A DNA stretch of 64,000 nt from positions 32,001 to 96,000 of the IMG/VR virus record IMGVR_UViG_3300011980_000002; one strand, given 5' to 3'. The position numbers were made by a program, and so were the translations under genes. The DNA comes from a virus. Below the pieces are notes generated by a model that did no database searches, was not told where the DNA came from, and saw nothing but the letters and a program-made list of their open reading frames with translations. This document shows, in pieces, positions 21,286-52,346 of this stretch (the first letter of the stretch is position 1; every line of letters begins with the position of its first letter).

Positions 21286-22416
21286 ATGTTACAAGCAGGA
21301 GTAATAGGAATAGGAAATGCAGGAAGCCAGGTAGCAGTTTTAGCTGCACAGAATAATATTAAATCTGTAGTTATTAACTCATCTGAGAATGACTTAGCAG
21401 TAATCCCAGAATCTGTTCATAAGTTCCTAGTAGGTGACTCAAGAGGAGCCGGAAAGAACAGAGACGCTGCTAAAGGATTTTTAAAGAGTTCCATAACTTC
21501 TATTCTTAATAAAGAAGATTTCATGGAGTTTATGGATGGAAATGATGTTACTTTTGTAGTATCATCAACAGGTGGTGGAACCGGTTCAGGTATTGCACCA
21601 ATAATGACAGAGATTTTATCTCAAGCATTTCCGGATACATTTGTTATACTTGTGGGTATATTACCTACATTAAATGAGGCATATTCAACACAGGTTAATA
21701 CTGTGGCATTTGTTAAAGAGTTATATGAGAAGATTAATAAACCAACTTATATGCTCTATGATAATGAGAAGATGTCTTCAGAACCATCTCATATCATGAT
21801 GGAATCTATCAATCAGTCTATTATAGAAGATATATTAGTATTGGTTGGTAAGTATAATTATGCTACCAAATATTCTTCTATAGATGAGAAAGATATGTCT
21901 ATGATAATATCTACTCCAGGAAGATTGGTAGTATCAAGACTGGTCAATTTCAAAGAGAAAGATTTAGACCAGTCAGGTATTGATAGTAGAGTTGAAGATA
22001 TTCTCAAGAGTAACACTCATGCAGAACTTCAAAGAGATAAGGTTATTAAGAGAAGTGGAGTTATCGCTAATCTTAATGAGTCTATAGCATCTAAGTTCGA
22101 TGACCATATGACAACCTTGCAGAAGTTCGTTGGTGTTCCGGTAGAAGAATTTACCCATATTTCTATCAATGTGGAGAAAGCATTACCTAATAATGTATTC
22201 TTCATTGGTTCTGGTTTATCTCCAGTATTTGATAGATTAACCAAGATTAATGAAAGAATAGAAGAGATTGATGCTTTACAAAATGATAGTGAGAATATCT
22301 CAGATGCACTATCATCTGTAGATATGGATAAAGCTAATGAAAAGAAAGATTATAGACAGAAGAAAGATAATGATGCACCATTAGCTCTGTCAGATATATT
22401 CAAGAACTTTTCATAA
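21286..22416 (+). CDS. phuZ: Tubulin/FtsZ-family GTPase (PhuZ/TubZ-like)
   Basis: T1 loop GIGNAGSQ, tubulin signature SSTGGGTGSGIAP, and a C-terminal acidic/hydrophobic tail. Confidence 0.85.
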   Translation: MLQAGVIGIGNAGSQVAVLAAQNNIKSVVINSSENDLAVIPESVHKFLVGDSRGAGKNRDAAKGFLKSSITSILNKEDFMEFMDGNDVTFVVSSTGGGTGSGIAPIMTEILSQAFPDTFVILVGILPTLNEAYSTQVNTVAFVKELYEKINKPTYMLYDNEKMSSEPSHIMMESINQSIIEDILVLVGKYNYATKYSSIDEKDMSMIISTPGRLVVSRLVNFKEKDLDQSGIDSRVEDILKSNTHAELQRDKVIKRSGVIANLNESIASKFDDHMTTLQKFVGVPVEEFTHISINVEKALPNNVFFIGSGLSPVFDRLTKINERIEEIDALQNDSENISDALSSVDMDKANEKKDYRQKKDNDAPLALSDIFKNFS

Positions 22417-25233: not shown

Positions 25234-25537
25234 ATGTGATCCCATATAAGATTTTCATTATAATGATATAATATTAATGTGAGTAACTGATAAAAATATA
25301 ATACTAATATATAAATATCCTGAGATGGATAACTATTATAGAAATGAATATAATAGTCTTATTTAATTGATCAATCGTGAAAATCAATTAAGTATAGTTA
25401 CTCCTTTCCATTATAAGATTTATGTAATCTTATATGTCCAGATGAATTAGATAAGTTTCTCCTTTAAAGAAATAATAATGAGAAACATAGATTCACAATA
25501 ACTCCAGAAAAAGACTATATATATTTTATTTTACACC

Positions 25538-25717
25538 TGTTGAATGCTGTTAATATAAGTCTTTAAATTTATCTAAATCATCTGAAGAATACTAACATTC
25601 GAAGTTAAATAAAAACAAGGCAATCACATTCCTGACTTGTATTTAACAGCATTCAACACAAATTCTAAATCAATACAGATACTACTTCAAATAGTAGTAT
25701 CTGTTTATTTTTTTTTG
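25538..25717 (+). ncRNA. Candidate structured small RNA (long hairpin plus its own terminator)
   Basis: 16-bp perfect inverted repeat tgttgaatgctgttaa (25538-25553) / ttaacagcattcaaca (25643-25658) with further imperfect pairing. It is followed by a strong terminator, acagatactact / agtagtatctgt plus a T-tract (25675-25717). No ORF. Confidence 0.35.
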
Positions 25718-25720
25718 ATT

Positions 25721-25747
25721 TATATAATATTATCATGTAACAATAAA
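25721..25747 (+). promoter_or_regulatory. Early-type promoter-like motif
   Basis: tatataatattatcatgtaacaataaa. Confidence 0.45.
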
Positions 25748-25773: not shown

Positions 25774-26028
25774 ATGAGAAATAACAATCAAGCAACGAGA
25801 GAGAAATTGTATAATATCATTGATATGATGATAAGCAATGGGGATATAAAAGATACCCTCGAGATACATGTCATATATGACAAATTGAAAAAATGCTGTG
25901 ATAATATTGCTGAAAAGATCGCTGATAAGAAATATGAGGTAACTGATATTACTGAATACAGGTCTGAACGTGAGGTACATCGTATAAGAGTGTTAAAAGA
26001 TTTTGGGATGTTAAGAAAGGTGATTTAG
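25774..26028 (+). pseudogene. Fam-B (YdcK-like) paralog 0, 5' fragment before a 1-nt deletion
   Basis: Ends ..HRIRVLKDFG. Intact paralogs read gattttggagatgttaag whereas this copy reads gattttgggatgttaag (26001-26010), which shifts the frame. Confidence 0.7.
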
Positions 26029-26099
26029 GTGGATTTGTATCTTCCTATGATAATCTTTCACAATACGGTGATTGTTGGATATATGATGACGCAGTTGTC

Positions 26100-26696
26100 A
26101 TGAGTGAAGCAAATATTATCGAAGATGCTAAAATTAAAAATAACGCTACTATATGTGGAACGGCTGTAGTGAGAGGAGATTCTGTAATACAAGATGATTG
26201 TGAGGTATATATGCAATCAATAATAAATGATTCTTATATGTCTGGAAATTGTTGTTTATATAATGTGGAAGTTCATGACAGCAAACTCGAAGGCTGCCTA
26301 TATCTAAATCAATCCAGTATACAGAAAAGTAATATAATAGCAAATGACGCCAGAATACATAATAAAACTTTTATACATGACTCTAAACTTAAGTTAGCTG
26401 ATGATAGTGATATTTATAAAAGCTATATAGATAGGTCAACTATACAAGGATATATTACACTAAATAATGTTGAGTTGAGCAATAGTAAAGTTATTAATAA
26501 AGATGAAGAAGTCTATATTGCTGATAAAATTATTGACGGTGCTAATGTAACAAGTACTAACACTATTACATCATTTTCATTAGATTTATACGATAACCAA
26601 GAAGAATGTGATATAGTCTTCTATAAAAATAGAAATGGTAACACCACTATTACTATATCTCACAAATCTGGTGTTCACGATTCTATTGAAATTTAG
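26100..26696 (+). pseudogene. Fam-B paralog 0, 3' fragment (beta-helix part, also C-terminally truncated)
   Basis: This frame is open from ~26007 and encodes DVKKGDLGGFVSSYDNLSQYGDCWIYDDAVV, continuing the 5' fragment. It lacks the family C-terminus (..FDKVA.EYF). Confidence 0.7.
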
Positions 26697-26732
26697 ACAT
26701 CTGGTATAAAATCTAGTAAGTAATACAATAAT

Positions 26733-26770
26733 AACGGATACTACTTCAATAGTAGTATCCGTTATTTTTT
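26733..26770 (+). terminator. Rho-independent terminator
   Basis: aacggatactact / agtagtatccgtt followed by a T-tract. Near-duplicate of the terminator at 25675-25717. Confidence 0.75.
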
Positions 26771-26788
26771 TATAATATTAAAGTTATC

Positions 26789-26812
26789 TATATAATATTA
26801 ATTTGTAATAAA
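26789..26812 (+). promoter_or_regulatory. Early-type promoter-like motif
   Basis: tatataatattaatttgtaataaa. Confidence 0.5.
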
Positions 26813-26840
26813 ATAATATTATATTAAAGGAGAAAAAAAT

Positions 26841-27812
26841 ATGGAAAAGAATAATAGTATTAATAATAAATACGAAATAACCGATATTGTCGGTTATAGG
26901 TTTAAGAAGAAAGTATATCGTATAAGAGCATTAAAAGATTTTGGAGATGTTAAGAAAGGAGATTTAGGTGGTTTTGTATCTTCCTATGAAAATCTTTCCC
27001 AAGAAAATGACTGTTGGATATATGATAACGCAGCAGTTATGGATAATGCTATATTAGAAGACAATTCTACTATTCATAATAGGGTCATCGTGTGTCATGA
27101 TAGTATTGTCCGTTGTAACTCTAAAATTTCCAAAAGTTGTAGAATATATGACTCTACTAAGATAACAAATTCTACAATATCTGGTAAATCCGTATTAAGG
27201 AATATTAATATAGTTGGAAGTACAATAAATGGAGTTATTCTCTCATACAAAGGTAATGTGTGGATCGAGTACTCTACTATCAGGGGTTCACTATTATTAA
27301 GTGAATCATTAATTTTTAATAGTAAGATTATTTCAGATAGAGCTTCTATATATCAAGACTCGGTAATTATGAGATCGAATATAAGATTATTAAATGGGTC
27401 AGATATATATAGTTCATGGGTATATGAGTATTCTAATATATATGCTAATCTCAAATTACATAATAGCAAGATATATAGATCCGATATTATTGGTGATATT
27501 AATAACATGATTAAAATTGTAAATAAACGAGTAGAGATGGGATATATTACATGTACAGAAGATATCATATCACTTTCAGTTGACATAAATACGATAGGTT
27601 TTGATACATTCAATTATTACCCATCTATTAATTGCCGGAATACTAGAAATATTAAGCTCATAATATCAACACAACTTACATATTATAATAACATAGATGA
27701 TGTAATTAAATCCATTAGTGAACATATGGGAACATCTGCTCCTGCTTATTTTGTAAAAACGCTTAGAAACTTTGACAAGCTCGCTAAAGAATATTTTAAT
27801 ATCACTGAATAA
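26841..27812 (+). CDS. Fam-B paralog 1: YdcK-like left-handed beta-helix repeat protein
   Basis: YRIRALKDFGDVKKGDLGGFVSSYENLSQENDCWIYDNAAVMDNA parallels the E. coli YdcK N-terminus (..[37 protein letters not shown]..), followed by hexapeptide-like repeats. Confidence 0.65.
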   Translation: MEKNNSINNKYEITDIVGYRFKKKVYRIRALKDFGDVKKGDLGGFVSSYENLSQENDCWIYDNAAVMDNAILEDNSTIHNRVIVCHDSIVRCNSKISKSCRIYDSTKITNSTISGKSVLRNINIVGSTINGVILSYKGNVWIEYSTIRGSLLLSESLIFNSKIISDRASIYQDSVIMRSNIRLLNGSDIYSSWVYEYSNIYANLKLHNSKIYRSDIIGDINNMIKIVNKRVEMGYITCTEDIISLSVDINTIGFDTFNYYPSINCRNTRNIKLIISTQLTYYNNIDDVIKSISEHMGTSAPAYFVKTLRNFDKLAKEYFNITE

Positions 27813-27832
27813 ATTAAAGGAGAAAAAGAAAT

Positions 27833-28909
27833 ATGGAAAAGAATAATGAAATACTAAATGAGAATAGGTTAACCGAGAAAACAATTAGCCCTGAAGATTA
27901 TCATAAGCTACTATTAATGCTTGATGATGATAGAAAGAAATTCGTGAACGATCCGATAGATAAAGTCGTTAATATTAATAACAAATATGAGATAACTGAT
28001 ATTGTAGGTTATAGATTTAAGAAGAAAGTCTATCGTATAAGAGCATTAAAAGATTTTGGAGATGTGAAGAAAGGTGATTTGGGTGGATTTGTATATTCTT
28101 ATGAAAACCTTTCTCAAGATGACAACTGTTGGATATACGATAATGCAGTTGTTATGGAAAATGCAACTGTTATCACAGATGCTAAAATTAAAGGTAATGT
28201 TACTGTATATGGAGAAGCTGTAGTAAGAGGAAATTCTATAGTAGAAGATAGTTGTTGGATATATGGGGAATCTTTTATTGTGGATTCTCATATATCTGGA
28301 AAATGCCGTCTATGTGATACAAAAGTTGATAGAAGTAGACTTAAAGGATATATATTAGACATACTCAAAGGTTCCCTTATACAAGATTCATATATTAGAG
28401 GTTGTTTATATCTAAAGTCTTCAGATATTACTAGAAGCAATGTAATATCCGATACTGCGTATATATCCGGTAGGACTTATGTATCAGGTTCTAAGCTTAG
28501 ACTGATGAGAGATAGTGATATTTATAAATCCTACATATCCATGTCATCAACTATACGAGGTTATGTTAAATTAGATTGTGCTAAGTTAGTTAGAAGTGAA
28601 TTCGTTAACATAAAAGAAGAAATTTATGTTAAGAATAAAACTATTGCTGATGGATATATCACAAACACTAATGACGCTATATCATTCTCGGTAGATTTAC
28701 ATGATAAGAAAGAAGAGTATGAGCTATTCTTCTATAAGAATAAAGGTGGTAATATTGTTATATATTACAGATTCTGGATATTTGACTCTATTGATAAACT
28801 GATATCACATATAAAAAATAATAATAAGTCTAATGATAATATTAAAGCCATTGAAGTATTCAGGTATTTTGATAAGGTTGCTAGGGAATATTTTGCTACC
28901 AATAAATAA
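27833..28909 (+). CDS. Fam-B paralog 2: YdcK-like beta-helix protein with a ~45-aa N-terminal extension
   Basis: Same conserved block, plus repeats such as NATVITDAKIKGNVTVYGEAVVRGNSIVEDSCWI. Confidence 0.65.
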   Translation: MEKNNEILNENRLTEKTISPEDYHKLLLMLDDDRKKFVNDPIDKVVNINNKYEITDIVGYRFKKKVYRIRALKDFGDVKKGDLGGFVYSYENLSQDDNCWIYDNAVVMENATVITDAKIKGNVTVYGEAVVRGNSIVEDSCWIYGESFIVDSHISGKCRLCDTKVDRSRLKGYILDILKGSLIQDSYIRGCLYLKSSDITRSNVISDTAYISGRTYVSGSKLRLMRDSDIYKSYISMSSTIRGYVKLDCAKLVRSEFVNIKEEIYVKNKTIADGYITNTNDAISFSVDLHDKKEEYELFFYKNKGGNIVIYYRFWIFDSIDKLISHIKNNNKSNDNIKAIEVFRYFDKVAREYFATNK

Positions 28910-28929
28910 TTCAAAGGAGAAAAAGAAAT

Positions 28930-30135
28930 ATGGAAAATAATAGGTCTACTGAAATTAAAGACTTAAAATTCGAGTTAGAGAATTTAATGGTTAATAATGA
29001 TAATATTAAAGAGTTGGGAGACTATATTCACAAATTATCCGGTATATTATTATCTAAAACGATACTAATGAATGAATTATACAACTATTCCGGTGATAAT
29101 AGAAATTATCAAAAATTATTAAGTGAAACTAAGAAAATATCAAAACTTATAATAAGAGCTCAAGATAGAATAGCTCTATTAGATACTCATTATTCCAATA
29201 ATAAATATGAGATAACTGATATTGTCGGTTATAGGTTTAAAAAGAAAGTATACCGTATAAGAGCATTGAAAGATTTCTCAGATGTTAAGAAAGGTGATTT
29301 AGGTGGATTTGTATCTTCCTATGAAAACCTTTCACAATATGGTGATTGTTGGATATATGACAATGCTGCTATTATAGATAATGCTCTATTAGAAAATGAT
29401 TCTACTGTGCATAATATGACTATCGTGTATGATAATAGTATTATTAGAGGGGAATCTAAAGTATATAATAGTACTAGAATATGTGGAAGTTCATATATAA
29501 ATAATTCTAACATATTCGGCAAATCATTTCTAAGAAATGTGTTTATACAAGGTAGTGGAATAAAAGGAAATCTGATAACTGATAAAAATAAATCAAGTAT
29601 TATTTGCTCATATATCAGAGGTTCATTATCTTTAAGAGGTTCTCTTATTTCCGGTTCCAGTATTATTTCTGACATGGCGAATATATATCAGGGTTCATCA
29701 ATAATTAAATCAAATCTGAGATTGTGTAAAAATTCTCATATCAATAACATCTATATGGAGAATTGTGCAACTGTGTGTGGTAAAATGATGTTAAAAAATA
29801 CTACTATAACAGATTCTAAAATAAATGGTAATAATGATAATGAAATTAAAATCATAAATAAGAGAATACTTCATGGATGTATCAAAGATACAAATGATGT
29901 TATCTCACTATCATTAGATGTTGCTGGTGCTATTACAGATTCTACTGATAAATTATGTTATTATAGGAACGAAAATGATAAATTGTATATATCATTTTAT
30001 TTCTCATACTTTAATTCTATTGAAGCTGTAATTGAATTTATAAAAGATCAACAGAGAGTATCATTTACTGAAGATTATATAGAGTTATTGAGACAGTTTG
30101 ATAAGGTTGCACAAAATCATTTCAATAGTAACTAA
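28930..30135 (+). CDS. Fam-B paralog 3: YdcK-like beta-helix protein with a ~95-aa N-terminal extension
   Basis: Same conserved block and shared C-terminus ..LLRQFDKVAQNHF. Confidence 0.65.
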   Translation: MENNRSTEIKDLKFELENLMVNNDNIKELGDYIHKLSGILLSKTILMNELYNYSGDNRNYQKLLSETKKISKLIIRAQDRIALLDTHYSNNKYEITDIVGYRFKKKVYRIRALKDFSDVKKGDLGGFVSSYENLSQYGDCWIYDNAAIIDNALLENDSTVHNMTIVYDNSIIRGESKVYNSTRICGSSYINNSNIFGKSFLRNVFIQGSGIKGNLITDKNKSSIICSYIRGSLSLRGSLISGSSIISDMANIYQGSSIIKSNLRLCKNSHINNIYMENCATVCGKMMLKNTTITDSKINGNNDNEIKIINKRILHGCIKDTNDVISLSLDVAGAITDSTDKLCYYRNENDKLYISFYFSYFNSIEAVIEFIKDQQRVSFTEDYIELLRQFDKVAQNHFNSN

Positions 30136-30145
30136 TTTATATGAT

Positions 30146-30186
30146 AAAGAAGATAAACTAATATAGTTTATCTTCTTTATTTTTTA
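30146..30186 (+). terminator. Rho-independent terminator
   Basis: aaagaagataaact / agtttatcttcttt followed by a T-tract. Confidence 0.75.
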
Positions 30187-30359
30187 TCCGAGTAATAGCT
30201 CGGAGTACTTATATATTTTAGTTTAAACAACTTATTAATCGCTTAACACTAAGTATTTCATTATTATTTTTTATAATAATATTTCCAATTTATATATTAT
30301 TAAATTAGATACTTAAAGTGATTATTAAATAAATTAAAGGAGAATAAGAAATAGGAATT

Positions 30360-32873
30360 ATGGTTAAAGATGTAGAAGTCCAATGGACGGATGATGATAT
30401 TGAGAAAATCCAAAGAAAACCAAATTTATATATTCGTAAATATGGTAATGAAGGATGTAATCATCTTTCTCATGAGATTATACAAAATGCCATTGATGAA
30501 GTTATAGATGAAACTTCCAATGGTGATATGTTGGCAATAAGAATAGATTATCCTTTAGGTAAATTAACCGTAAGTGATAATGGTAGAGGATTTCCGGAAA
30601 CTAAATATCCTTTAGATATATTCTGTACTAAAATACAATCCGGTAGTAAAGCTAATAGAGACCAATCTGGTGGAACTGCCGGAGAATTTGGTATAGGTGC
30701 TACAGTATGTAATGCTTTATCTTCTTATTTTAGAATTACCTCTAATAGAAGTAAAGAGAAGTATATACATACGATAGAATTTGAAAATGGTAAAATGATA
30801 TCAGATAAGAAAAAAGATAATCCTAAGAAACTTCACGGTAGTACTGTAGAGTTTATTCCTAATCCTAAATACCTAGGAAAGAATTCTCATATAGTATATG
30901 AAGATATTCATAAATGGATTAAAGATATGAGCTATCTATTATCTTCGGAGAAGAAATCTATAGAAATAGTATTTGAGGTTTATGATAATGACAAATCTAT
31001 TATTAAAGAGAAAATCAAACCTCAACCATTCTCATCATTATTATCTACTATAGTAAAGAAACAAGCAGTATCTCCAATATCTTTTAATAAAAGAACTAAG
31101 TTTATGGAGACTACTCATTTAAATGAAAAACCTACAGAGAAAGAATTATATTTAGATGTATCATTTACATATGATGATATTACCGATGTTAATGAACCTA
31201 ATATAGTGGAGTCATTTTGTAACTATACAAGAACTACAGATGGTGGTGTTCATGTACAAGCTGTAGATGAAGCTATATGCAGATACTTACAAACAGAAAC
31301 TAAGAAAAGACTATCTGAGAAAGAAAAAGAGAAGATAGATATATTATGGCAAGATGTAAGAACTGATTTAAGACTATTAATAAATCTTACATCCAATGGT
31401 CAGGTACAGTTTGTTGGTAATGCTAAAACTAAAATAGGAAATGAGAATTTTATTCCTATAATAAAAGAATTAGTTAATGAGTCATTAACTAATATCTTTA
31501 ATGATAATGAAGCTTTACTTAATTCATATTGTAAGATAGTTAAGACTAATGCTAAAGCAAGAATAGAGTTAAATAAGGCTAAGAAATCCGTATCTATTAA
31601 AACTAAGTCTAATCCATTCATGGATAAATTATCTAAGAGGTATTATTCATGTAATAATAGAGGTAAGGCTTATAAAGAAATCTACTTAGTAGAGGGACAA
31701 AAATCAGCAGCAGGTTCTATAGCTTCTGGAAGAAATCCAGATGTACAAGCTGTATACGGATTTAGAGGAATGACTGCTAACCCTTATAAGAGAGACAATA
31801 TCTCTATCATGGAAAATGAAGAGTTAAAAGAATACTGTGAAAGAATTCATTATGACATTAAATCTGGTAATGTGGAAGATGTTTATTTTAATAAGATAAT
31901 AATGAGTTTTGATGCAGATAGTGATGGATATGGAATTAGCTCAGGTGTAGCAGCATTCCATGCTAAATTTGCTAGACCTATAGTAGAAGCTGGTTTATTG
32001 TATAAAGTATATCCACCATTATATTTAATAGATGATAAGACTCATCCTTATATAAGGAATAAAGAAGAATATATAGAAGTATATAGAGATAATATCATTA
32101 GGAATTATACCATAACTTCTATAGGTAATAATAACTCTAAATTATCTAAATCTGATTTTAAAGAGTTTATAGATATTACTAAATATTATACTGAGACATT
32201 AACAAGAGTAGCATCTCATTACTCTGTTAATAGATATTTAATAGAATTAGTTGGATATCATATAACGATGTATATATTAGCTAAATATCTTAAGAATAAT
32301 AAGAATTTAGATATTAATGAGGTATTAGAGTATTATGAGGATTTATCCCAAGAAGTTTATAAATCTCATATTAATACTGCTTTAAATGACCAGAAGTTTG
32401 TAAGTTCCTTCATGAAAGATATACAAGATGAATTCCCTGAGATAACTCTAAATGAGAAATACTTGACTGGGGTTATTGATGGTAAATATCAGGTAATAAA
32501 GATTAGTTATAACCTAATGAAGAAACTATCAGACTTAACAGAAACTTTTATCACATATGGACTTCATATTACTTATAGTGAAAAGAAATCTGATGAGATT
32601 AAATCTACCATAGGATATATGCTAGACTCTGCTAGTAAATATATCCCAAAGATAATAACCAGATACAAGGGACTTGGAGAAGCTAACTATGACCAAATAG
32701 CAGAAACTATAATGGACCCATCTAAAAGAATTCTGGTTCAATTAACATTTGACGATATTGAAAGAGATTTAAAGATATTTGATACTCTTCATGGTATATC
32801 TACAGATGATAAGAAATCAAGAAAGCAGATGATGAAGTCTTATAAGATTAGAAGAGAGGACATTGATAATTAG
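30360..32873 (+). CDS. Type II DNA topoisomerase, ATPase/TOPRIM subunit (GyrB/ParE, T4 gp39-like)
   Basis: HEIIQNAIDE, DNGRGFP, GGTAGEFGIGATVCNALS, TOPRIM EIYLVEGQKSAAGS and FDADSDGYGI. Confidence 0.85.
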   Translation: MVKDVEVQWTDDDIEKIQRKPNLYIRKYGNEGCNHLSHEIIQNAIDEVIDETSNGDMLAIRIDYPLGKLTVSDNGRGFPETKYPLDIFCTKIQSGSKANRDQSGGTAGEFGIGATVCNALSSYFRITSNRSKEKYIHTIEFENGKMISDKKKDNPKKLHGSTVEFIPNPKYLGKNSHIVYEDIHKWIKDMSYLLSSEKKSIEIVFEVYDNDKSIIKEKIKPQPFSSLLSTIVKKQAVSPISFNKRTKFMETTHLNEKPTEKELYLDVSFTYDDITDVNEPNIVESFCNYTRTTDGGVHVQAVDEAICRYLQTETKKRLSEKEKEKIDILWQDVRTDLRLLINLTSNGQVQFVGNAKTKIGNENFIPIIKELVNESLTNIFNDNEALLNSYCKIVKTNAKARIELNKAKKSVSIKTKSNPFMDKLSKRYYSCNNRGKAYKEIYLVEGQKSAAGSIASGRNPDVQAVYGFRGMTANPYKRDNISIMENEELKEYCERIHYDIKSGNVEDVYFNKIIMSFDADSDGYGISSGVAAFHAKFARPIVEAGLLYKVYPPLYLIDDKTHPYIRNKEEYIEVYRDNIIRNYTITSIGNNNSKLSKSDFKEFIDITKYYTETLTRVASHYSVNRYLIELVGYHITMYILAKYLKNNKNLDINEVLEYYEDLSQEVYKSHINTALNDQKFVSSFMKDIQDEFPEITLNEKYLTGVIDGKYQVIKISYNLMKKLSDLTETFITYGLHITYSEKKSDEIKSTIGYMLDSASKYIPKIITRYKGLGEANYDQIAETIMDPSKRILVQLTFDDIERDLKIFDTLHGISTDDKKSRKQMMKSYKIRREDIDN

Positions 32874-32874
32874 T

Positions 32875-35295
32875 ATGGGAAAGAAAAAGAAATTTACCAC
32901 AGAAGATTTTAAAACTTATATAGATAATTATACTAAAGAAAATATCGCAGATGCCTCAAGAAGATTCTCTATAATATCTGGAGTTAATAGAAATGTGGCT
33001 AGGCATATTCCAGTAGTATTCGATGGATTAAAACCTGTTACAAGAAGAATACTCTTAGTAATGTATGAGAGTAAAACTAATAAGTTCCAAAAGGTAAATA
33101 AAGTAGCCGGAGATGCTATGGGTAAGTATCATCCACATGGCGATGCTTCTATATCGGATGTCATTAGTAAGATGGGACAAGATTGGAATAATAATATTAC
33201 CTATATAGAAACTCAAGGTAACTTTGGTAATAGACAAGGTGATGATGCAGCATCTGGTCGTTATACAGAGTGTAAATTATCTAAGTTTGCTTATAAGTGT
33301 TTCTTTGAAGATTATAAGTATGCTTCATTAGATACTAAGATGAGTTATACTGGTAATGACGAGGAACCAGATTATTTACCATCTAAATATCCTATAGGAT
33401 TGGTTAATCCACAATTTTCCAGTATAGGATATGGTACAGCAGCTAATATACCACCATTTAATTTTACTGAAGTTTTAGAGGCTACTATTAAACTTATTAA
33501 AGACCCTGATAGTAGGATTAATCTAATACCCGATTTCCCATCAGGTTGTGATGTTATAGCTAATAGTGATTTAGCTGAAGTAGAAAAAACTGGTATTGGT
33601 AAAGTATTAGTCAAATCTTCTACTGAAATTGATTATAATAAGAATATTATTCATATAACATCATTACCATTACAAATCGGTACTAAAGCTGTAGCTTATA
33701 ATATATCTAATTTAGTATTAGCTAAGAAGATAGAAGGAATAGCTGATATTAAAGATTATACAGACCCAGAAGTTGGAGTACTATTAGATATACATTTAAA
33801 ACCATCTATAAATCCAGATAAGATATTAGAAGAATTAATGAAGAAAGATGTTGGTTTAAAGAAGACATTTTCTATACAGATTAAGTTTATAGATGATTAT
33901 CAAGAGTATGATTATTCTCCAAAAGAATTTCTATTGACATGGTTAGATTTTAGAAGAGAAATACTTCAATCTATGTATAATAATAAATATGTTAAGTTAT
34001 TGGAAGAGCAGCATATGAATAATGTCAAGTTATTTGTATTCAATAAAGATAACCTTAATCAAACTGTCGATATATGTAGAAAAGCTTCTTCTACTAATGA
34101 TGCAATAGAGAAGTTAATGAAGAAGTATAAAGATAGTGAAGTTGGAATGACTTCTATGCAAGCTAAGACTATACAAGGAATGAGATTCTCAGATTTCAAT
34201 AAAGAATCTTATAATGGCTTCTTAAAACTAAAAGAAGAATTAAAAGCCTCTATTAAAGAAACTGAATTAATATTATCTAATACATCTAAGATAGATGAGA
34301 TAATAGAAAAGGAATTATTAGAGGGTATTTCTTTATTTGGTACCAAGAGAAGGTCTAAGATAATTTATAATAAACCTGATAAGAAAGAGATTATAGATAA
34401 GTCTAAGGTATTAGTAGCAGTATCTAAAGATGGTTATATTAAGAAGATTAATGTTAAAGAATATAAGACAATTGGTTCTTTAGGAAACCAATCTTCAAGA
34501 CAGGTTATATTAGCAGAGACCAGAAACGATAAGAATATATTAATATTTGATAGTACTGGTAAATGTACTAAGATACCTGTATTATCTATTCATGAATCTA
34601 CTCCGGAAGAAAATGGAGTAATGATAGAAAGATTCTTTAAAGTATCCGGTAATGTCGTAGCAGTAATGGAAGAAATTACAGATAAGGAATTATCTAAAGA
34701 TTTATTAATAACTTTCTTTACTAAGAAAGGATTTTCTAAAAGAACTTCTTGTAAAGAATTTTACAATATGAAAGATAATAAAACTGCTATTAGTATAACA
34801 GAAGGTGATGAATTAGTAGCAGTAATAAATACTTTAAAAGATTCTTCTAAAGATATCATTATCTATACAGATAAAGGTGATGGTATAAGATTAGATATTA
34901 ATGATATTAAAATCCAAGGAGCATCTACTCGAGGATTAAATATGATTAATTTAACAGATGATGAATATGTAGTAGGGGTAGATAAAATAGAGGCTAATAA
35001 GAAGTTATTAGTATTTATCACATCTATGGGAAGAGTTAAAGTTAGTGAACTTAAATATCTTCCACCTATGAATAGGAAAGATGGTTCCGTATCATTAATT
35101 AATCTTAATAATAATGAATACTTGGTAGGACTTGCATCTGTAAATAATAAAAATACATTAACTGTATTTAGGAAATTTGGAGAGCCTGTAGATATTAAGA
35201 TAGAGGATATTAAACCGTCTATGAGAATAGCTAAAGGTGAGAAATTAGTTAAAACTCCTAGTGGTGATATTGTAGTAGGATTTAGGATTATTTAA
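32875..35295 (+). CDS. Type II DNA topoisomerase, cleavage-religation subunit (GyrA/ParC, T4 gp52-like)
   Basis: RHIPVVFDGLKPVTRRIL, GKYHPHGDASISDVISKM, GNFGN..GDDAASGRYTECKL (active-site Tyr). ATG at 32875; the track start at 32863 is a TTG. Confidence 0.85.
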   Translation: MGKKKKFTTEDFKTYIDNYTKENIADASRRFSIISGVNRNVARHIPVVFDGLKPVTRRILLVMYESKTNKFQKVNKVAGDAMGKYHPHGDASISDVISKMGQDWNNNITYIETQGNFGNRQGDDAASGRYTECKLSKFAYKCFFEDYKYASLDTKMSYTGNDEEPDYLPSKYPIGLVNPQFSSIGYGTAANIPPFNFTEVLEATIKLIKDPDSRINLIPDFPSGCDVIANSDLAEVEKTGIGKVLVKSSTEIDYNKNIIHITSLPLQIGTKAVAYNISNLVLAKKIEGIADIKDYTDPEVGVLLDIHLKPSINPDKILEELMKKDVGLKKTFSIQIKFIDDYQEYDYSPKEFLLTWLDFRREILQSMYNNKYVKLLEEQHMNNVKLFVFNKDNLNQTVDICRKASSTNDAIEKLMKKYKDSEVGMTSMQAKTIQGMRFSDFNKESYNGFLKLKEELKASIKETELILSNTSKIDEIIEKELLEGISLFGTKRRSKIIYNKPDKKEIIDKSKVLVAVSKDGYIKKINVKEYKTIGSLGNQSSRQVILAETRNDKNILIFDSTGKCTKIPVLSIHESTPEENGVMIERFFKVSGNVVAVMEEITDKELSKDLLITFFTKKGFSKRTSCKEFYNMKDNKTAISITEGDELVAVINTLKDSSKDIIIYTDKGDGIRLDINDIKIQGASTRGLNMINLTDDEYVVGVDKIEANKKLLVFITSMGRVKVSELKYLPPMNRKDGSVSLINLNNNEYLVGLASVNNKNTLTVFRKFGEPVDIKIEDIKPSMRIAKGEKLVKTPSGDIVVGFRII

Positions 35296-38483: not shown

Positions 38484-40235
38484 ATGAAAAATATATTGCC
38501 TTTCATGACAGAGTCTGGAAGTACATTTTCTCAGACATCTACCATTGGGTCTTTTTCTAATGGTAGACATATGAATTCATTCGATGATAACTATACAAGA
38601 GTTTATAATCAGTTTAATAATCAAGGACTTAAGATAAATACAGATATTCGTGCTATACTCGAAGATCAGGCTATTTATGAGAGTTTCCGTGATGAACTTA
38701 TAAGTGATATACTTAATGATTGTGATCATTATAGTTATGCTGAGCATGGTAACCTTGCAGCATTAGCTGAGCAGGTTTCTACCATGATGGATAACAGAAG
38801 AGATATGCTTCTTTCAGAGTCTGTTACAACCGGTACTTTGCTTCCAATAAAGATGATTGACTTCCCACTTATCGTTAAGGAACATCTTAAGAATGTTATT
38901 AAGGATATTATGCAGTGTGAAGTTACCAAGTCACCTGTTATTAAGAAGCATATTCAACATACATGGATAGTTGATAAGAAGACAAAGAAGAGATATGAGT
39001 ATCCACAGTGCTTCTATAGAAAAGGACAAGCTGCTGAGTTATTTGATGCAGGTAAGGGATATAAGCTCAATGATACTCCTTGTACTCTTCCAGCATTTAA
39101 TTATAAGATAATTGATAACCATGTTACTGGTATATCACTTCCGGAAAGAGAGAAGCTCTCTATAAATACAAAGATAGTTTATGGTGTACTTGCAGATAAT
39201 ACTAAGGTACCTCTTGACATGAGAATCAATCTTGCAGATGGTTCTTGGTTAGGTGGACTTATAGATACAAAGGTAGAGTCAACAGCTACACCTGGTACAT
39301 TCCATGATGTTAAGGATTGTATTACCGGTTATGTAGATTTCACTAATAATACTACATCCATATCATCTGCTAATGGAACTATTAAGAAGGTTATATTTGA
39401 AGGATATCTTTCAAATGAACTTAATGAAAGAGCTGTAACATTCGATTACTCAAGAGAGGAAAGAGAATGGAAGATTGAAGATGGACATAGAGTTGATGTT
39501 CCATATTCAATAGAGGAGCTTGAAGATGCTAAGGCACTTCTTGACCTTGATTTGTACAAACTTAGCTATAGTAATCTTTCTGATTACTTAGTAAATATGG
39601 AAGACGCTGATGGTCTCGCCTATCTTGATGAAGCATTTAAGAAGTTTGAAGGTCTTACTCTTGACCCACTTGATTTTAATGGTTTCGTTAAGAAGCAGAC
39701 ATTTGATTGTGATTCTACTCATGCTACTGTAGCTCTTCCATGTGAATATATCGAGAAGCAACTTAAGTTCTTGATAGATAGATTTGTTATTGATATAGCT
39801 GATACTGCTAAGCTTGATGATGTTACATTTGTTATTTATGGTAACCCAAGATATGTTTCACTTCTCGGTGGAGCTGTTAACTGGGTTGTTAATAGTGGTG
39901 ATACAATTGGTGGTGTTAAGCTTACAAATAGTTATGGTATAATGAACTCTGGTGGAGTTAAGATACAAGTTATATCTTCTGATAAGATACTTGTTCCGGA
40001 TAATAAGGGTCTTAAGATTATACCATATCCAACATCTGATAAGACAATGACATTTAAACACTATAAGTATACATCTCATATACTTACTGCTGCTAATTCT
40101 GCTTATAAGGATGCTGATAGACCAGGTGGAAGCTATACAAATATCGTTGGTGTTTCAAGATACACCAATGCAGGTATACAGCAAATACAGGGTCATATTA
40201 CATTTACAAATGATACATCATATATTAAGATATAA
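38484..40235 (+). CDS. Probable major capsid protein
   Basis: 583-aa ORF with a clear codon-usage shift (ctt, aag, ggt, gct) typical of very highly expressed genes. It is preceded by the acidic protein and followed by a strong terminator. No motif-level identification was possible. Confidence 0.5.
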   Translation: MKNILPFMTESGSTFSQTSTIGSFSNGRHMNSFDDNYTRVYNQFNNQGLKINTDIRAILEDQAIYESFRDELISDILNDCDHYSYAEHGNLAALAEQVSTMMDNRRDMLLSESVTTGTLLPIKMIDFPLIVKEHLKNVIKDIMQCEVTKSPVIKKHIQHTWIVDKKTKKRYEYPQCFYRKGQAAELFDAGKGYKLNDTPCTLPAFNYKIIDNHVTGISLPEREKLSINTKIVYGVLADNTKVPLDMRINLADGSWLGGLIDTKVESTATPGTFHDVKDCITGYVDFTNNTTSISSANGTIKKVIFEGYLSNELNERAVTFDYSREEREWKIEDGHRVDVPYSIEELEDAKALLDLDLYKLSYSNLSDYLVNMEDADGLAYLDEAFKKFEGLTLDPLDFNGFVKKQTFDCDSTHATVALPCEYIEKQLKFLIDRFVIDIADTAKLDDVTFVIYGNPRYVSLLGGAVNWVVNSGDTIGGVKLTNSYGIMNSGGVKIQVISSDKILVPDNKGLKIIPYPTSDKTMTFKHYKYTSHILTAANSAYKDADRPGGSYTNIVGVSRYTNAGIQQIQGHITFTNDTSYIKI

Positions 40236-43053: not shown

Positions 43054-44010
43054 ATGGCTAATAATTTTCTAACTAAATATGATGTTCATGACATTAAAAC
43101 TTCTTTTAATATAAAAAAAGTTATGTCTGAGCATAGTATAAATTGTAAAAAAGCTGAGCTTAAAGTATTGACTGAATCTGGTACAGATGAGGACTTCTAC
43201 TACTTATACCAAGAATCTATGAGTGATGCTATTGGAAAACTTGGAGAGATAATAGATGATATAATAAAGAAATTCATTGAATTTTGTAAAGATGTACAGA
43301 TACAGATATTATCAAAGATTAACTCAGTTGAATTTAAGTCAAATGTGCAAAAAATAAACGATAAGCTTAAGTTCAATCCATTCTTAAGAAGTAAATCACA
43401 GACAGTTAGTGATTTTAATCCCAAGATGAAAGATTATATAGAAGCTTCTTCAAAACTTGCTAAGATGGTTGCAAAACTTAAAAGTGGTAATTCAGTATCT
43501 ACTGAAATTGACAACTTTGCAGACTGGTTTGATGATTTAGCTGAGAAGCAAATGAAACAGAGAAAATTGAGTAATGCTGCCATATTTGCAACACTTAAGA
43601 GTTTAATGGAGAAGGTTGATGGTGAAATTAAGAAGATTCGCGATGATGCTAGGGATCTTCTTACAGATGTCAAAGGTATCAAACCTAAAAAAGATGATGA
43701 TGATAACGATATAAATCTTAAATCATCAGCTACTAAACTTTGTAATTATATATCAAGAGTTAGTAGAGCAGCTATAAGGCTCCGTGTAACGACATTAAGT
43801 GAGTATCTTGCAGTATGTAAGAGAGAAATTCTTAATGCTAAAGAAGAAGATGTTAAGAATGAGTCATATGAATATGAAGATAGTTATGATTCGGATTACG
43901 AATATGATTACAGTAATGACGATGATTCTTCAGATGATGATTCAGATGATGATTATGAATACGAATCTGGATATGATTACGAAGACAATTACGATGAGTA
44001 TGATTTTTAA
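43054..44010 (+). CDS. Fam-C paralog 3 (long D/Y/E/S tail)
   Basis: N-terminal LKVLTESGTDE plus helix IIDDIIKKFIEFCKD. C-terminus YEYEDSYDSDYEYDYSNDDDSSDDDSDDDYEYESGYDYEDNYDEYDF. Confidence 0.6.
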   Translation: MANNFLTKYDVHDIKTSFNIKKVMSEHSINCKKAELKVLTESGTDEDFYYLYQESMSDAIGKLGEIIDDIIKKFIEFCKDVQIQILSKINSVEFKSNVQKINDKLKFNPFLRSKSQTVSDFNPKMKDYIEASSKLAKMVAKLKSGNSVSTEIDNFADWFDDLAEKQMKQRKLSNAAIFATLKSLMEKVDGEIKKIRDDARDLLTDVKGIKPKKDDDDNDINLKSSATKLCNYISRVSRAAIRLRVTTLSEYLAVCKREILNAKEEDVKNESYEYEDSYDSDYEYDYSNDDDSSDDDSDDDYEYESGYDYEDNYDEYDF

Positions 44011-51056: not shown

Positions 51057-52346
51057 ATGAAAAAAATAGATGCTGTAAGATATACTACAAAAGAATTTAA
51101 AAAATGGGTTAACTATACAGAAAAAAATTCAAAAGCTGGATTGGGAAATACTACATATGATAGTCCAGGTCCATATAATATGAATGCAGGGTCTAATAAC
51201 TATACAGTATTTGCTGATTACTATAGGCAAAAAACCGGAATATCTGTTCAAGGAATGCCATGGTGTTTTAGTGAAGGTAATATAAAACTTGAAGATTCCT
51301 ATAAGGATATTTCAGATATACACCCTGGTGAAAAGGTATTAAGTGGTATTGGTAATAGATATAATATCGTTATATCTAACACACCACATGATGAATATGT
51401 TATAAAAGTATCATCTAATAAGACTAATCCGTTGATAGGGACTCCAGACCATCCAGTATACTCCATTAAGAATAATAATGAACCTCAATTAAATCCACTT
51501 AGTGATTTATCGATAGGTGATATTTTACTGATATATTCATATGAATATAATGATGAATCATCAATAACTTATAATGGGATACAATACTCAAAATCTATTA
51601 TAACAGATATTGAGGTATTGAAAGATAAACAAACTGTTTACACGTTAGCAGTTGATGGTGATCATACATATACAGTTAATAATGTAGCAGTTCACAATTG
51701 TGATAGCTTTGTTGATACTGTATTCATACATTTGTATGGTGTAGAGAGAGCTAAAAAGTTATTAAATGGATTTTCTGCGTATACCCCTACATCTGCTGGA
51801 TACTTTAAAGCTGTTAGCAGGTGGTTTAGTAGACCTGAGCCTGGAGATATAATATTCTTTAAAAATAGTGAAAGAATAAATCATACTGGATATGTACATG
51901 ATGTATCTGGTAATACAGTTTATACCGTAGAAGGAAATACTTCATCAGGTAATAATGTAGTAGTTGCTAATGGTGGTTGTGTTGCTCTTAAATCATATGA
52001 TATACATAATCCAAGGATAGCTGGATATGGTAGACCTGATTATGAAGGTGTATTAAGAGACTTTAATCCTGAAGGATTTGTCGAAGGTTGGTTTAAAGCA
52101 GCAGATAATGTTCGTTGGTGGTATCAGTTTAGTAATGGAACATATGCTAAAAATAATGGTACGAATAACGGATGGTATAAGATTAAAAATAAATGGTATT
52201 TATTTGATACTAATGGTTATATGTTAACAGGGCATCAGACTATTGGTGGACAAGAATACTATTTATGTGAAGATCCAAATAAGGTTGAAGGTGCATTGAT
52301 GAAAACTGATGAAAATGGTGCACTAACTATTTGGGAAAGTGAATAA
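51057..52346 (+). CDS. Endolysin precursor: CHAP/NlpC-P60-like amidase-peptidase interrupted by a mini-intein, with C-terminal cell-wall-binding repeats
   Basis: Exteins QGMPW|CDSFVD..GDIIFF..INHTGYV..TVEGNTS carry the Cys/His signature. The C-terminus GWYKIKNKWYLFDTNGYMLTGHQTIGGQEYYL resembles CW_binding_1 repeats. Confidence 0.8.
   Translation: MKKIDAVRYTTKEFKKWVNYTEKNSKAGLGNTTYDSPGPYNMNAGSNNYTVFADYYRQKTGISVQGMPWCFSEGNIKLEDSYKDISDIHPGEKVLSGIGNRYNIVISNTPHDEYVIKVSSNKTNPLIGTPDHPVYSIKNNNEPQLNPLSDLSIGDILLIYSYEYNDESSITYNGIQYSKSIITDIEVLKDKQTVYTLAVDGDHTYTVNNVAVHNCDSFVDTVFIHLYGVERAKKLLNGFSAYTPTSAGYFKAVSRWFSRPEPGDIIFFKNSERINHTGYVHDVSGNTVYTVEGNTSSGNNVVVANGGCVALKSYDIHNPRIAGYGRPDYEGVLRDFNPEGFVEGWFKAADNVRWWYQFSNGTYAKNNGTNNGWYKIKNKWYLFDTNGYMLTGHQTIGGQEYYLCEDPNKVEGALMKTDENGALTIWESE
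51264..51698 (+). mobile_element. Mini-intein (145 aa, Hint domain) inserted at the catalytic Cys of the lysin
   Basis: Begins CFSEGNIKL, contains TPDH (TxxH block B) and VYTLAVDGDHTYTV (block F), and ends VAVHN followed by Cys+1. Confidence 0.8.

What the first reader, a model, noticed from the sequence alone, without database searches (positions are those of the whole stretch)
25774..30135. Tandem array of YdcK-like left-handed beta-helix proteins with stepwise-growing N-termini
Seen: four consecutive genes, the first one broken, share the block NKYEITDIVGYRFKKKVYRIRALKDFGDVKKGDLGGFVSSYENLSQ..DCWIYDNAAV, followed by imperfect hexapeptide-like repeats and a common C-terminus (..FDKVA.EYF). 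The block parallels the N-terminus of E. coli YdcK (..[37 protein letters not shown]..), an uncharacterised hexapeptide-repeat protein. The copies are 323, 358 and 401 aa long, and the increase comes from N-terminal helical extensions. All start MEKNN/MENN with the same SD. Several copies of this family in tandem under early-type promoters is not something I can explain from known phage biology. Candidate roles are acyl/nucleotidyl-transferase-like modification enzymes or beta-helical binding and decoy proteins.
Basis: partly seen in the sequence, partly recalled or inferred. Interest (0 to 1): 0.65.

Follow-up and report, generated by a model that had tools for sequence, protein, structure and literature searches.

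The report
Tandem YdcK-like beta-solenoid phage genes
A giant phage carries four neighbouring copies (one broken) of a widespread but uncharacterised rod-shaped repeat protein related to E. coli YdcK, probably made early in infection; the array is real and evolves by swapping modules, but its function is still unknown.

Summary
Window 25774-30135 holds four paralogues: a pseudogene with a 1-nt deletion, then genes of 323, 358 and 401 aa. All share a 53-aa block that is 91-94% identical among the three intact copies. The rest is 34-44% identical.

The block matches the solved YdcK structure 2F9C directly (E 8e-7). A family profile matches it at E 7e-39. The body is a 17-residue-per-coil beta-solenoid. 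So "YdcK-like" holds as homology, but the curated family cut-offs are not reached.

The host genome is a ~223-kb jumbo phage of the AR9/PBS1 lineage, with PhuZ-like tubulin and an RNAP beta-like subunit, probably infecting a Gram-positive bacterium. The array sits behind two AT-rich motifs that resemble AR9 early promoters and is bounded by three terminators.

Six related contigs keep the array at the same place with 3-4 copies. The "stepwise-growing" N-termini are incidental. The extension is a swappable module, with a recombination breakpoint at the 3' end of the block. The block is under very strong purifying selection (dN/dS 0.03-0.08). The solenoid has no invariant catalytic-type residue.

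My best guess is non-catalytic early binding proteins. The function itself was not shown. The family is already catalogued (PHROG 5070/7964), so interest is moderate.

The parts
25675..25704 (+). Intrinsic-terminator-like hairpin plus T-run that closes the upstream unit (a candidate ncRNA). It marks the 5' boundary of the array.
   Evidence: conserved in relatives
25720..25737 (+). Early-promoter-like motif TTATATAATATTAtcatG, 54 nt upstream of the g0 ATG.
   Evidence: resembles the AR9 early consensus AAATATATATTAT-N6-G (PMC5312081)
25774..26696 (+). g0, the type A copy and a pseudogene. A 1-nt deletion at about 26005-26007 breaks the frame. Repaired it is 307 aa and acidic (pI 4.8). It has a 52-aa N-extension and lacks the C-terminal helices.
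   Evidence: It has substitutions at family-invariant sites (A71V) and relaxed dN/dS. Orthologues are intact in L001-L006.
26730..26766 (+). Terminator-like hairpin after g0. Its stem sequence is related to the hairpin at 25675.
26788..26805 (+). Early-promoter-like motif CTATATAATATTAatttG, 53 nt upstream of the g1 ATG. It heads the likely g1-g2-g3 operon.
26841..27812 (+). g1, type B, 323 aa. It has a 9-aa N-terminus, then cap block, solenoid and alpha/beta C-domain.
26868..27026 (+). Conserved 53-aa cap block of g1 (KYEITD..CWIYD).
27833..28909 (+). g2, type C, 358 aa, with a 50-aa helical N-extension. AlphaFold2 model m1a6e36868ba0 shows a solenoid at residues ~106-260 and an alpha/beta domain at 280-353.
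27983..28141 (+). Conserved cap block of g2. A recombination breakpoint lies at its 3' end, seen by comparison with L002 copy 3.
28930..30135 (+). g3, type D, 401 aa. Its 91-aa N-extension is conserved among orthologues.
29203..29361 (+). Conserved cap block of g3.
30143..30181 (+). Terminator-like hairpin (18 pairs) plus T-run. It closes the g1-g3 unit and separates it from the GyrB-like gene at 30360.

Best explanation
What it is (well supported). This is a four-gene paralogue array, with one copy decayed, of YdcK-superfamily beta-solenoid proteins. It lies in a ~223-kb jumbo phage of the AR9/PBS1 lineage. It forms two probable early transcription units: g0 alone, and g1-g2-g3.

Each protein is modular. 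It has an optional helical N-extension of 5-91 aa. Next comes an almost invariant 53-aa cap that leads into the first coil. Then come about ten coils of a 17-residue (6+6+5) solenoid. Three of the four types end in a small alpha/beta domain.

How it most likely works (inferred, not shown). The proteins are probably non-catalytic binding proteins made at the start of infection. The invariant cap would dock onto one common partner or ligand that does not change. The fast-diverging solenoid surface, C-domain and exchangeable N-extension would give each paralogue a different second specificity. The array would then be a small repertoire of adaptors or decoys for host takeover or counter-defence. 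It evolves by duplication, loss, pseudogenisation and recombination at the cap.

My confidence in the identity is about 0.9. The confidence given below is for the mechanism.
For: Identity:
- NCBIfam YdcK_fam matches at E 1e-18 to 2e-20.
- A family profile hits YdcK 2F9C/2PIG at E 7e-39, and the block alone hits it at E 8e-7.
- PHROG 5070 and 7964 match at E 1e-30 to 1e-36.
- The AlphaFold2 model shows a beta-solenoid with a coil of about 17 residues.

Early expression:
- The motif yTATATAATATTA-N4-G lies about 53 nt upstream of g0, g1 and several other genes. It resembles the AR9 virion-RNAP early consensus.
- The window encodes an RNAP beta-like subunit and an AR9-like major capsid protein.
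- In small phages, homologues lie between the lysogeny switch and the replication genes, or in the host-takeover region next to an ocr-like gene.

Constant cap and variable body:
- The block has dN/dS 0.03-0.08 at dS 0.6-0.9 between paralogues. This indicates selection rather than gene conversion.
- The solenoid has dN/dS 0.16-0.66.
- The block domain occurs in 7165 representative clusters.

Non-catalytic:
- Outside the cap, only S, I, L, G and A residues plus one N-K pair are conserved in 13-14 of the 14 copies compared. There is no conserved His or acidic residue.
- Family members range from about 100 to 2114 aa and contain nothing but more solenoid.

Arms-race-like dynamics:
- Relatives carry 3-4 copies with type B present or absent.
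- N-extensions are swapped between types.
- W_g2 versus L002c3 has 21 mismatches in the first 147 nt of the block and only 7 in the next 765 nt.
- g0 is decaying.
Against: - No partner, ligand or phenotype is known for any member of the superfamily, including E. coli YdcK.
- Expression timing is inferred from a sequence motif and from analogy with AR9. It was not measured.
- Foldseek found no informative structural neighbour, and PADLOC found nothing.
- An extremely conserved cap is equally what one expects of a small active site or ligand pocket, so catalysis by the cap region is not excluded.
- Solenoid dN/dS stays below 1, so there is no proof of positive selection.
- Oligomeric state could not be predicted.
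Confidence: 0.4

Rival explanations
1. They are left-handed beta-helix acyl- or acetyl-transferases of the LpxA/LpxD/GlmU/NeuO kind. They would trimerise and modify a sugar nucleotide, a cell-wall polymer or another acceptor, each paralogue with its own substrate.
For: Weak hits to Hexapep (g1 at 27.3 bits against a cut-off of 27) and to LpxD, GlmU and NeuD models at E 1e-3 to 1e-6. The family profile hits LpxD and LpxA chains at about 1e-8. Database annotators often name homologues 'glucosamine N-acyltransferase'. Prophage-encoded hexapeptide acetyltransferases exist, for example NeuO (PMC3046976).
Against: The matches cover only the repeat pattern and fall 200-600 bits below the curated cut-offs. 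No conserved His or other catalytic-type residue exists in the solenoid. The coil is 17 residues rather than 18. Solenoid length is unconstrained across the family. A lipid A enzyme makes no sense for the likely Gram-positive host, inferred from a CHAP plus choline-binding lysin. No acceptor-pathway genes are adjacent.
Confidence: 0.15
2. They are topoisomerase-associated beta-helix factors, analogous to the pentapeptide-repeat proteins Qnr, MfpA and AlbG. They would bind or regulate the phage GyrB/GyrA-like type II topoisomerase encoded immediately downstream, or the host gyrase.
For: The array lies directly upstream of the GyrB-like (30360-32873) and GyrA-like (32863-35295) genes, and this synteny is kept in all six related contigs. 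Foldseek listed AlbG, MfpA and EfsQnr among its top hits. Type A is strongly acidic (pI about 5, net charge -15 to -17), as DNA mimics are.
Against: The Foldseek hits are not significant (E >= 0.01, TM <= 0.37) and are generic for beta-helices. g1-g3 are mildly basic (pI 8.4-8.7), so they are not DNA mimics. The only acidic copy is the broken one here. A strong terminator separates the array from gyrB. Homologues occur in many small phages that encode no topoisomerase.
Confidence: 0.1
3. They are structural or cytoskeletal proteins. One version is virion fibre or spike-like beta-helices with a conserved N-terminal anchor. The other is bactofilin-like polymers working with the nearby PhuZ-like tubulin.
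For: A conserved N-terminal module with a variable beta-helix is the classic layout of receptor-binding proteins. Weak Bactofilin Pfam hits occur in some family members. A homologue in Bacillus phage Bp8p-T is named 'polymer-forming cytoskeletal protein'. Tubulin lies 3.4 kb upstream, and the capsid gene lies 8 kb downstream.
Against: Tailspike matches are non-significant. The promoters are of the early-like class rather than late. In small phages the genes sit in the early or replication module, never in the tail module. An N-terminal cap would block head-to-tail polymerisation of the solenoid. The chromosomal homologue YdcK was crystallised as a soluble protein (PDB 2F9C, 2PIG).
Confidence: 0.08

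Closest known systems
YdcK of E. coli and Salmonella (NCBIfam NF040481; PDB 2F9C, 2PIG; Pfam PF18836 B_solenoid_ydck)
   Same: The N-terminal cap motif (..A..DF.DVK.G..GG[FW]V....NLSQ.G.CWIYD) is homologous, followed by a beta-solenoid with 17-residue coils. Both are functionally uncharacterised.
   Different: The match is only 67-73 bits against a 350-bit equivalog cut-off and covers mainly the first ~100-190 residues. The phage proteins add helical N-extensions and a C-terminal alpha/beta domain that YdcK lacks. They are phage-encoded, multi-copy and probably early-expressed.
PHROG 5070 / 7964 / 20149 / 5353 (phage protein families, function unknown)
   Same: g1-g3 match strongly (E 1e-30 to 1e-36). 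These are the phage branch of the same superfamily. Members occur in Streptococcus, Liberibacter, Bacillus, Lactobacillus, Vibrio, Bacteroides and other phages, in early regions.
   Different: The window clade has its own C-terminal domain and N-extensions, and a 3-4-copy array at a fixed locus next to topoisomerase II. No nucleotide-level relative exists among 50,697 phage records.
Hexapeptide-repeat (LbH) acyltransferases: LpxA, LpxD, GlmU C-domain, NeuO
   Same: The first ~8 repeats after the cap follow the hexapeptide pattern [LIV]-x-[GDE]-[ND]-[ASC]-x. Profile similarity is weak.
   Different: No catalytic residues are conserved, the coil is 17 residues, the curated cut-offs are not reached, and there is no evidence of a trimer.
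Pentapeptide-repeat gyrase-interacting proteins (Qnr, MfpA, AlbG)
   Same: Both are rod-like beta-helical repeat proteins without enzymatic residues. Here the genes lie next to topoisomerase II genes, and some repeat stretches have a period of 5.
   Different: This is a different repeat family of opposite handedness (established knowledge of the two folds). g1-g3 are basic rather than acidic. The structural matches are not significant.

Membership tests
YdcK family (NCBIfam NF040481, equivalog) | Full-length HMM score at or above the curated cut-off of 350 bits | tested here: not met
   67-73 bits at E 1e-18 to 2e-20. The match covers profile positions 23 to about 129 in g1 and g2, and 23-214 in g3, of 326.
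YdcK family (NCBIfam NF040481, equivalog) | Homologous N-terminal cap motif (A..DF.DVK.G..GGW/FV....NLSQ.G.CWIYD) | tested here: met
   The block alone hits 2F9C residues 26-65 at E 8e-7. The family profile hits it at E 7e-39.
Pfam PF18836 B_solenoid_ydck | Sum score of the 17-residue repeat at or above 30 bits | tested here: not met
   g2 scores 17.2 bits, and g1 and g3 give no hit. More distant homologues such as P0016 and P0056 do pass, at 52-74 bits. The hydrophobic periodicity of 5, 6, 11, 12, 17 and 23 fits a 17-residue coil.
Pfam PF00132 Hexapep / trimeric LpxA-like acyltransferases | Hexapeptide repeat score at or above 27 bits | tested here: inconclusive
   g1 scores 27.3 (just passes), g2 18.4 and g3 11.4.
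Pfam PF00132 Hexapep / trimeric LpxA-like acyltransferases | Conserved catalytic residue (His or a general base) and acyl-CoA site at a trimer interface | tested here: not met
   No invariant His, Asp, Glu, Lys or Arg in the solenoid across 14 paralogues and orthologues. The trimer itself could not be tested.
PHROG 5070 / 7964 | Significant profile match over most of the profile | tested here: met
   E 1e-30 to 5e-36, covering profile positions 2-173 of 182 and 24-195 of 269.
Pentapeptide-repeat proteins (Qnr/MfpA) | A(D/N)LXX tandem repeats, Pfam Pentapeptide match, acidic DNA-mimic surface | tested here: not met
   No Pentapeptide Pfam hit. pI is 8.4-8.7 for g1-g3. Foldseek E >= 0.01.
Phage tailspike / receptor-binding beta-helix proteins | Significant structural match to right-handed tailspike helices, location in the tail module, late expression | tested here: not met
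   Foldseek gave E >= 0.008 and TM <= 0.30. The genes lie between early-like promoters and terminators. Expression timing itself was not measurable here.
Known anti-phage defence or anti-defence catalogues (PADLOC-DB) | Match to any catalogued model | tested here: not met
   No relevant hit. The only match is a chance-level Cas6 hit at E 0.0027 on the g3 N-extension.

The most novel reading that the evidence does not exclude
The invariant cap plus a diversifying, recombining solenoid and N-extension would make this array a phage 'specificity cassette' system. In it, one docking module is combined with interchangeable recognition modules that bind or neutralise different host factors, for example defence proteins, early in infection. 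If so, it would give the first function to the YdcK superfamily, which has more than 7,000 sequence clusters across phages and bacteria.
Probability: 0.2. Interest if true: 0.65.

Novelty: new member of a known kind. Interest (0 to 1): 0.35.

Why it matters
The YdcK-like cap-plus-solenoid module is very common. It occurs in 7,165 representative clusters and in phages of Firmicutes, Proteobacteria, Bacteroidetes, Actinobacteria and Thermotogae. It sits in early or accessory regions, yet no member has a known function.

This locus offers a clean natural experiment. It has four diverged paralogues with an almost frozen cap, visible module swapping, gain and loss of copies between close relatives, and one copy in decay.

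That pattern tells an experimenter which part to mutate (the cap) and which parts to swap (the solenoid and N-extension). It also argues against the 'acyltransferase' labels that databases propagate for these genes. On its own, however, it is an uncharacterised paralogue family rather than a new kind of system.

Tried and rejected
Searches that led nowhere:
- Megablast of the locus against 50,697 phage records gave no match.
- Foldseek of the full g2 model (pLDDT 72.5) against PDB and BFVD gave only generic, low-TM beta-helix hits: tailspikes, pentapeptide proteins and uncharacterised phage proteins. None was functionally informative, and 2F9C was not even recovered.
- A separate AlphaFold2 model of the C-terminal alpha/beta domain (pLDDT 69) searched against PDB gave a best E of 0.046 (Spc24/25, SH2-like). 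I treat this as chance.
- A word-based homologue search with the C-domain alone returned nothing.
- The g3 N-extension had no PDB sequence match.
- PADLOC gave nothing.
- Literature searches for YdcK, DUF7666, beta-solenoid with anti-defence, and LbH early phage genes found no functional data. A jumbo-phage genomics review (PMC7824862) contains none of the search terms used for such proteins (hexapeptide, solenoid, bactofilin, LbH, pentapeptide).
- Pfam scans of ten long multi-domain family members, done to look for informative fusions, found only more solenoid and one XRE-type HTH.
- The Sfi19 transcription-map paper could not be read.

Ideas rejected:
- DNA mimicry for g1-g3, because their pI is 8.4-8.7.
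- Programmed frameshifting in g0. TTT-GGG-A is not a canonical slippery heptamer, and the copy also has substitutions at family-invariant positions and relaxed dN/dS.
- Gene conversion as the reason for block identity, because dS is 0.6-0.9 within the block.

Full report
**1. The observation**

ORF listing shows four consecutive + strand genes between 25774 and 30135.
- The first gene is split into an 84-aa ORF (25774-26028) and a 198-aa ORF (26100-26696).
- Translating the three frames shows the reading simply continues in another frame after ..KDFG. The DNA reads TTTTGGGATGTTAAG where the paralogues read TTTTGGAGATGTTAAG. That is a single-base deletion at about 26005-26007.
- The other three genes are intact, at 323, 358 and 401 aa.
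- A protein alignment confirms the shared block, the repeat-rich middle and the common C-terminus of g1-g3.
- tblastn of the block against the window finds these four copies and nothing else.
- All copies share the SD AAAGGAGAAA and an MEKNN, MENN or MRNNN start.

**2. What the proteins are**

Family searches:
- Pfam gives only border-line Hexapep hits: 27.3, 18.4 and 11.4 bits against a cut-off of 27. It also gives one sub-threshold YdcK solenoid-repeat hit.
- NCBIfam's YdcK_fam matches all three intact copies at E 1e-18 to 2e-20. The scores are 67-73 bits against an equivalog cut-off of 350, and the match covers mainly the N-terminal part.
- PHROGs 5070 and 7964, both 'unknown function', match at E 1e-30 to 1e-36.
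- A profile of 85 family members hits the solved YdcK structure (2F9C/2PIG, 'putative transferase') at E 7e-39. The next best hits are LpxD and LpxA at about 1e-8.
- The 67-aa block alone hits YdcK residues 26-65 at E 8e-7.

Structure of g2 and sequence features:
- AlphaFold2 on g2 (pLDDT 72.5) gives two short N-terminal helices and a moderately confident cap.
- It then gives a beta-solenoid from about residue 106 to 260, with a coil of 16-19 residues, and a C-terminal four-strand, two-helix domain.
- Hydrophobic autocorrelation peaks at 5, 6, 11, 12, 17 and 23. This is the 6+6+5 coil of the YdcK-type repeat rather than the 18-residue LbH coil.
- g1-g3 are mildly basic (pI 8.4-8.7). The g0 type is acidic (pI about 5) in every genome.

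**3. The genome around it**

- GC content is about 27%.
- The contig of origin is 223 kb.
- Neighbouring genes include:
  - a PhuZ-like tubulin at 21286-22416;
  - GyrB-like and GyrA-like topoisomerase II subunits at 30360-35295;
  - a phiKZ/AR9-type major head protein at 38484-40235;
  - a phiKZ-like internal head protein;
  - an RNAP beta-like subunit at 10585-12891;
  - a CHAP plus choline-binding lysin.
- The capsid's nearest isolates are Bacillus AR9/PBS1, Staphylococcus S6-like phages and Yersinia phiR1-37, at about 24% identity.

This is a distant member of the jumbo-phage lineage with two multisubunit RNAPs. Its host is probably a low-GC Gram-positive bacterium.

**4. Transcription anatomy**

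- Terminator-like hairpins with T-runs lie at 25675-25704, 26730-26766 and 30143-30181. Seven such sites were found in 6 kb against 1.0 expected.
- Directly after the first two hairpins, 53-54 nt before the ATGs of g0 and g1, lies the motif yTATATAATATTA-N4-G.
- The same motif, at the same distance from an SD and ATG, precedes genes at 3396, 4223, 6338, about 19740 and about 61290.
- Loose matches to the motif are no more frequent than chance (40 found against 39.8 expected). The argument rests on the exact or one-mismatch copies and their fixed position.
- It resembles the experimentally mapped AR9 early (virion-RNAP) consensus AAATATATATTAT-N6-G+1 and the 'extended AT-rich' early promoters of phiKZ-like phages (PMC5312081).
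- g1, g2 and g3 are separated by only 20 nt, so they look like one operon. g0 is monocistronic.

Early expression is thus a reasoned inference, not a measurement.

**5. Comparative evidence**

Six related metagenomic contigs (L001-L006) keep the array at exactly the same place, between a 165-aa gene and gyrB. Copy numbers differ between them: 307/369/401 aa in L001, 307/323/313/401 in L002, and 307/310/396 in L003-L006.

Segment-wise identities define four orthologous types:
- A corresponds to g0.
- B corresponds to g1. It is present only in the window and L002.
- C corresponds to g2.
- D corresponds to g3.

Three points follow.
- The 307-aa length of type A is natural. In the window this copy carries the frameshift, substitutions at positions invariant across 85 family members (for example A71V), and relaxed dN/dS: 0.15 in the block and 0.7-0.9 in the C-terminal part. 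It is most likely a real pseudogene.
- The N-extension is not a growth series. Type C bodies that are 59-98% identical carry extensions of 5, 9, 50 or 61 aa. L003 copy 2 has the type B N-terminus on a type C body.
- W_g2 and L002c3 differ at 21 of the first 147 nt of the block, but at only 7 of the following 765 nt. This is a sharp recombination breakpoint at the 3' end of the block.

**6. Selection**

- Between paralogues the block has dS 0.6-0.9 but dN only 0.03-0.05, giving dN/dS 0.03-0.08.
- Its near-identity is therefore due to very strong purifying selection, not recent gene conversion.
- The solenoid evolves with dN/dS 0.16-0.66 and the C-domain with 0.15-0.38.
- Across the 14 copies compared, outside the block the only columns conserved in 13 or all 14 copies are S, I, L, G and A residues plus one N-K pair. 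No His, Asp or Glu is conserved.

**7. The wider family**

- The block alone retrieves 7,165 clusters (E <= 1e-3) among 1.84 billion representatives. Lengths range from about 100 to 2,114 aa, and some members carry several block-plus-solenoid modules.
- Ten long members contain only more solenoid repeats, plus one XRE-type HTH.
- In isolated phages the family occurs in at least 80 records.
- It lies upstream of the replication module in S. thermophilus Sfi19 (orf229).
- It lies between excisionase and the replication genes in Javan246.
- It lies between the C2 repressor and a Bro-N antirepressor in Liberibacter SC1, where it is split.
- It lies in the terminal early region next to an ocr-like gene in Bacillus phage Bp8p-C.
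- It forms a tandem pair between PRPP synthase and nicotinate phosphoribosyltransferase genes in Bacillus jumbo phage KLEB27-3.
- In S. thermophilus phages, genes downstream of the cro-like gene are early (PMC13575424).

Multi-copy, early-region placement is therefore recurrent, and the host range of the family is very broad.

**8. Interpretation**

The well-supported statement is one of identity. This is an early-promoter-driven paralogue array of YdcK-superfamily beta-solenoid proteins with a modular build.

For mechanism I favour non-catalytic binding proteins, at a confidence of about 0.4. The invariant cap would dock to a constant partner, and the variable modules would set a second specificity. 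Four lines of evidence lead there:
- the extreme cap conservation;
- the lack of catalytic residues;
- the unconstrained solenoid length;
- the copy-number flux and module swapping typical of host-interaction genes.

The rivals are a transferase (0.15), a topoisomerase-associated factor suggested by the conserved synteny with gyrB/gyrA (0.10), and a structural or cytoskeletal role (0.08). The remaining probability is 'something else'.

Nothing in the literature assigns a function to any member.

**9. Novelty and score**

The family is catalogued in NCBIfam, Pfam (the repeat) and PHROGs, and is widespread, so this is a new member of a known but uncharacterised kind. The new elements are the modular evolution around the cap, and the evidence against the propagated 'acyltransferase' annotations. 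Interest is 0.35.

Noticed in passing
window 25264-25712 (+): This is a candidate early non-coding RNA. An early-promoter-like motif (TGATATAATATTAatgtG at 25264) is followed by about 430 nt with no ORF longer than 27 aa inside it (a 40-aa ORF overlaps only its 3' end), ending at the terminator 25675-25704. The region is about 95% identical to L001-L003, far better conserved than the flanking protein genes. The + strand folds at -95 kcal/mol with z = -7.0 (the - strand gives z = -4.2). There is no Rfam match, even at E <= 1.
   Followed up: partly
window 3343, 4165, 6286, 9496, 18197, 19675, 25264, 25720, 26788, 61221 (all +): A phage-specific promoter-like class, yTATATAATATTw-N4-G, lies 50-70 nt upstream of SD and ATG in about ten genes. 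It resembles the AR9 early consensus but with a shorter spacer to the conserved G. The gyrB-like gene has a degenerate copy at 30290.
   Followed up: partly
window 10585-12891, 21286-22416, 38484-40235, 43054-44010: Here lie an RNAP beta-like subunit (Rpb2_6 domain), a PhuZ-like tubulin, an AR9/PBS1-type major head protein (24% identity) and a phiKZ-like internal head protein. Together they indicate a distant AR9-lineage jumbo phage. Whether it uses dU-DNA like AR9, PBS1, S6 and phiR1-37 was not tested.
   Followed up: partly
window 51057-52346 (+): A 429-aa protein combines a CHAP domain and choline-binding repeats with a sub-threshold Intein_splicing hit (31.9 bits against a cut-off of 35.8). 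It is probably an endolysin and points to a Gram-positive host with choline-containing wall polymers.
   Followed up: no
window 25675-25704 and 26730-26766: The two terminator hairpins that flank g0 share the stem core GATACTACT..AGTAGTATC. This suggests a duplicated terminator element that moved together with the gene cassette.
   Followed up: no
L004 11419-13924: In one related contig the GyrB-like gene is called as 78 aa plus 692 aa, instead of the 837 aa seen in the window and other relatives. The cause could be a frameshift, an assembly error or an insertion.
   Followed up: no
L011 (Liberibacter phage SC1) 4037-4259: The SC1 homologue of this family is split between two annotated ORFs, gp23 and gp24, in different frames. 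It is another broken or mis-annotated copy of the family.
   Followed up: no
L008 (Bacillus phage KLEB27-3) 7198-8909: A tandem pair of family members, annotated 'glucosamine N-acyltransferase', sits between ribose-phosphate pyrophosphokinase and nicotinate phosphoribosyltransferase genes. In Lactobacillus phage LfeInf a member lies about 2 kb from a PnuC NMN transporter. This may be a recurrent link with NAD-salvage genes, or it may be coincidence.
   Followed up: no
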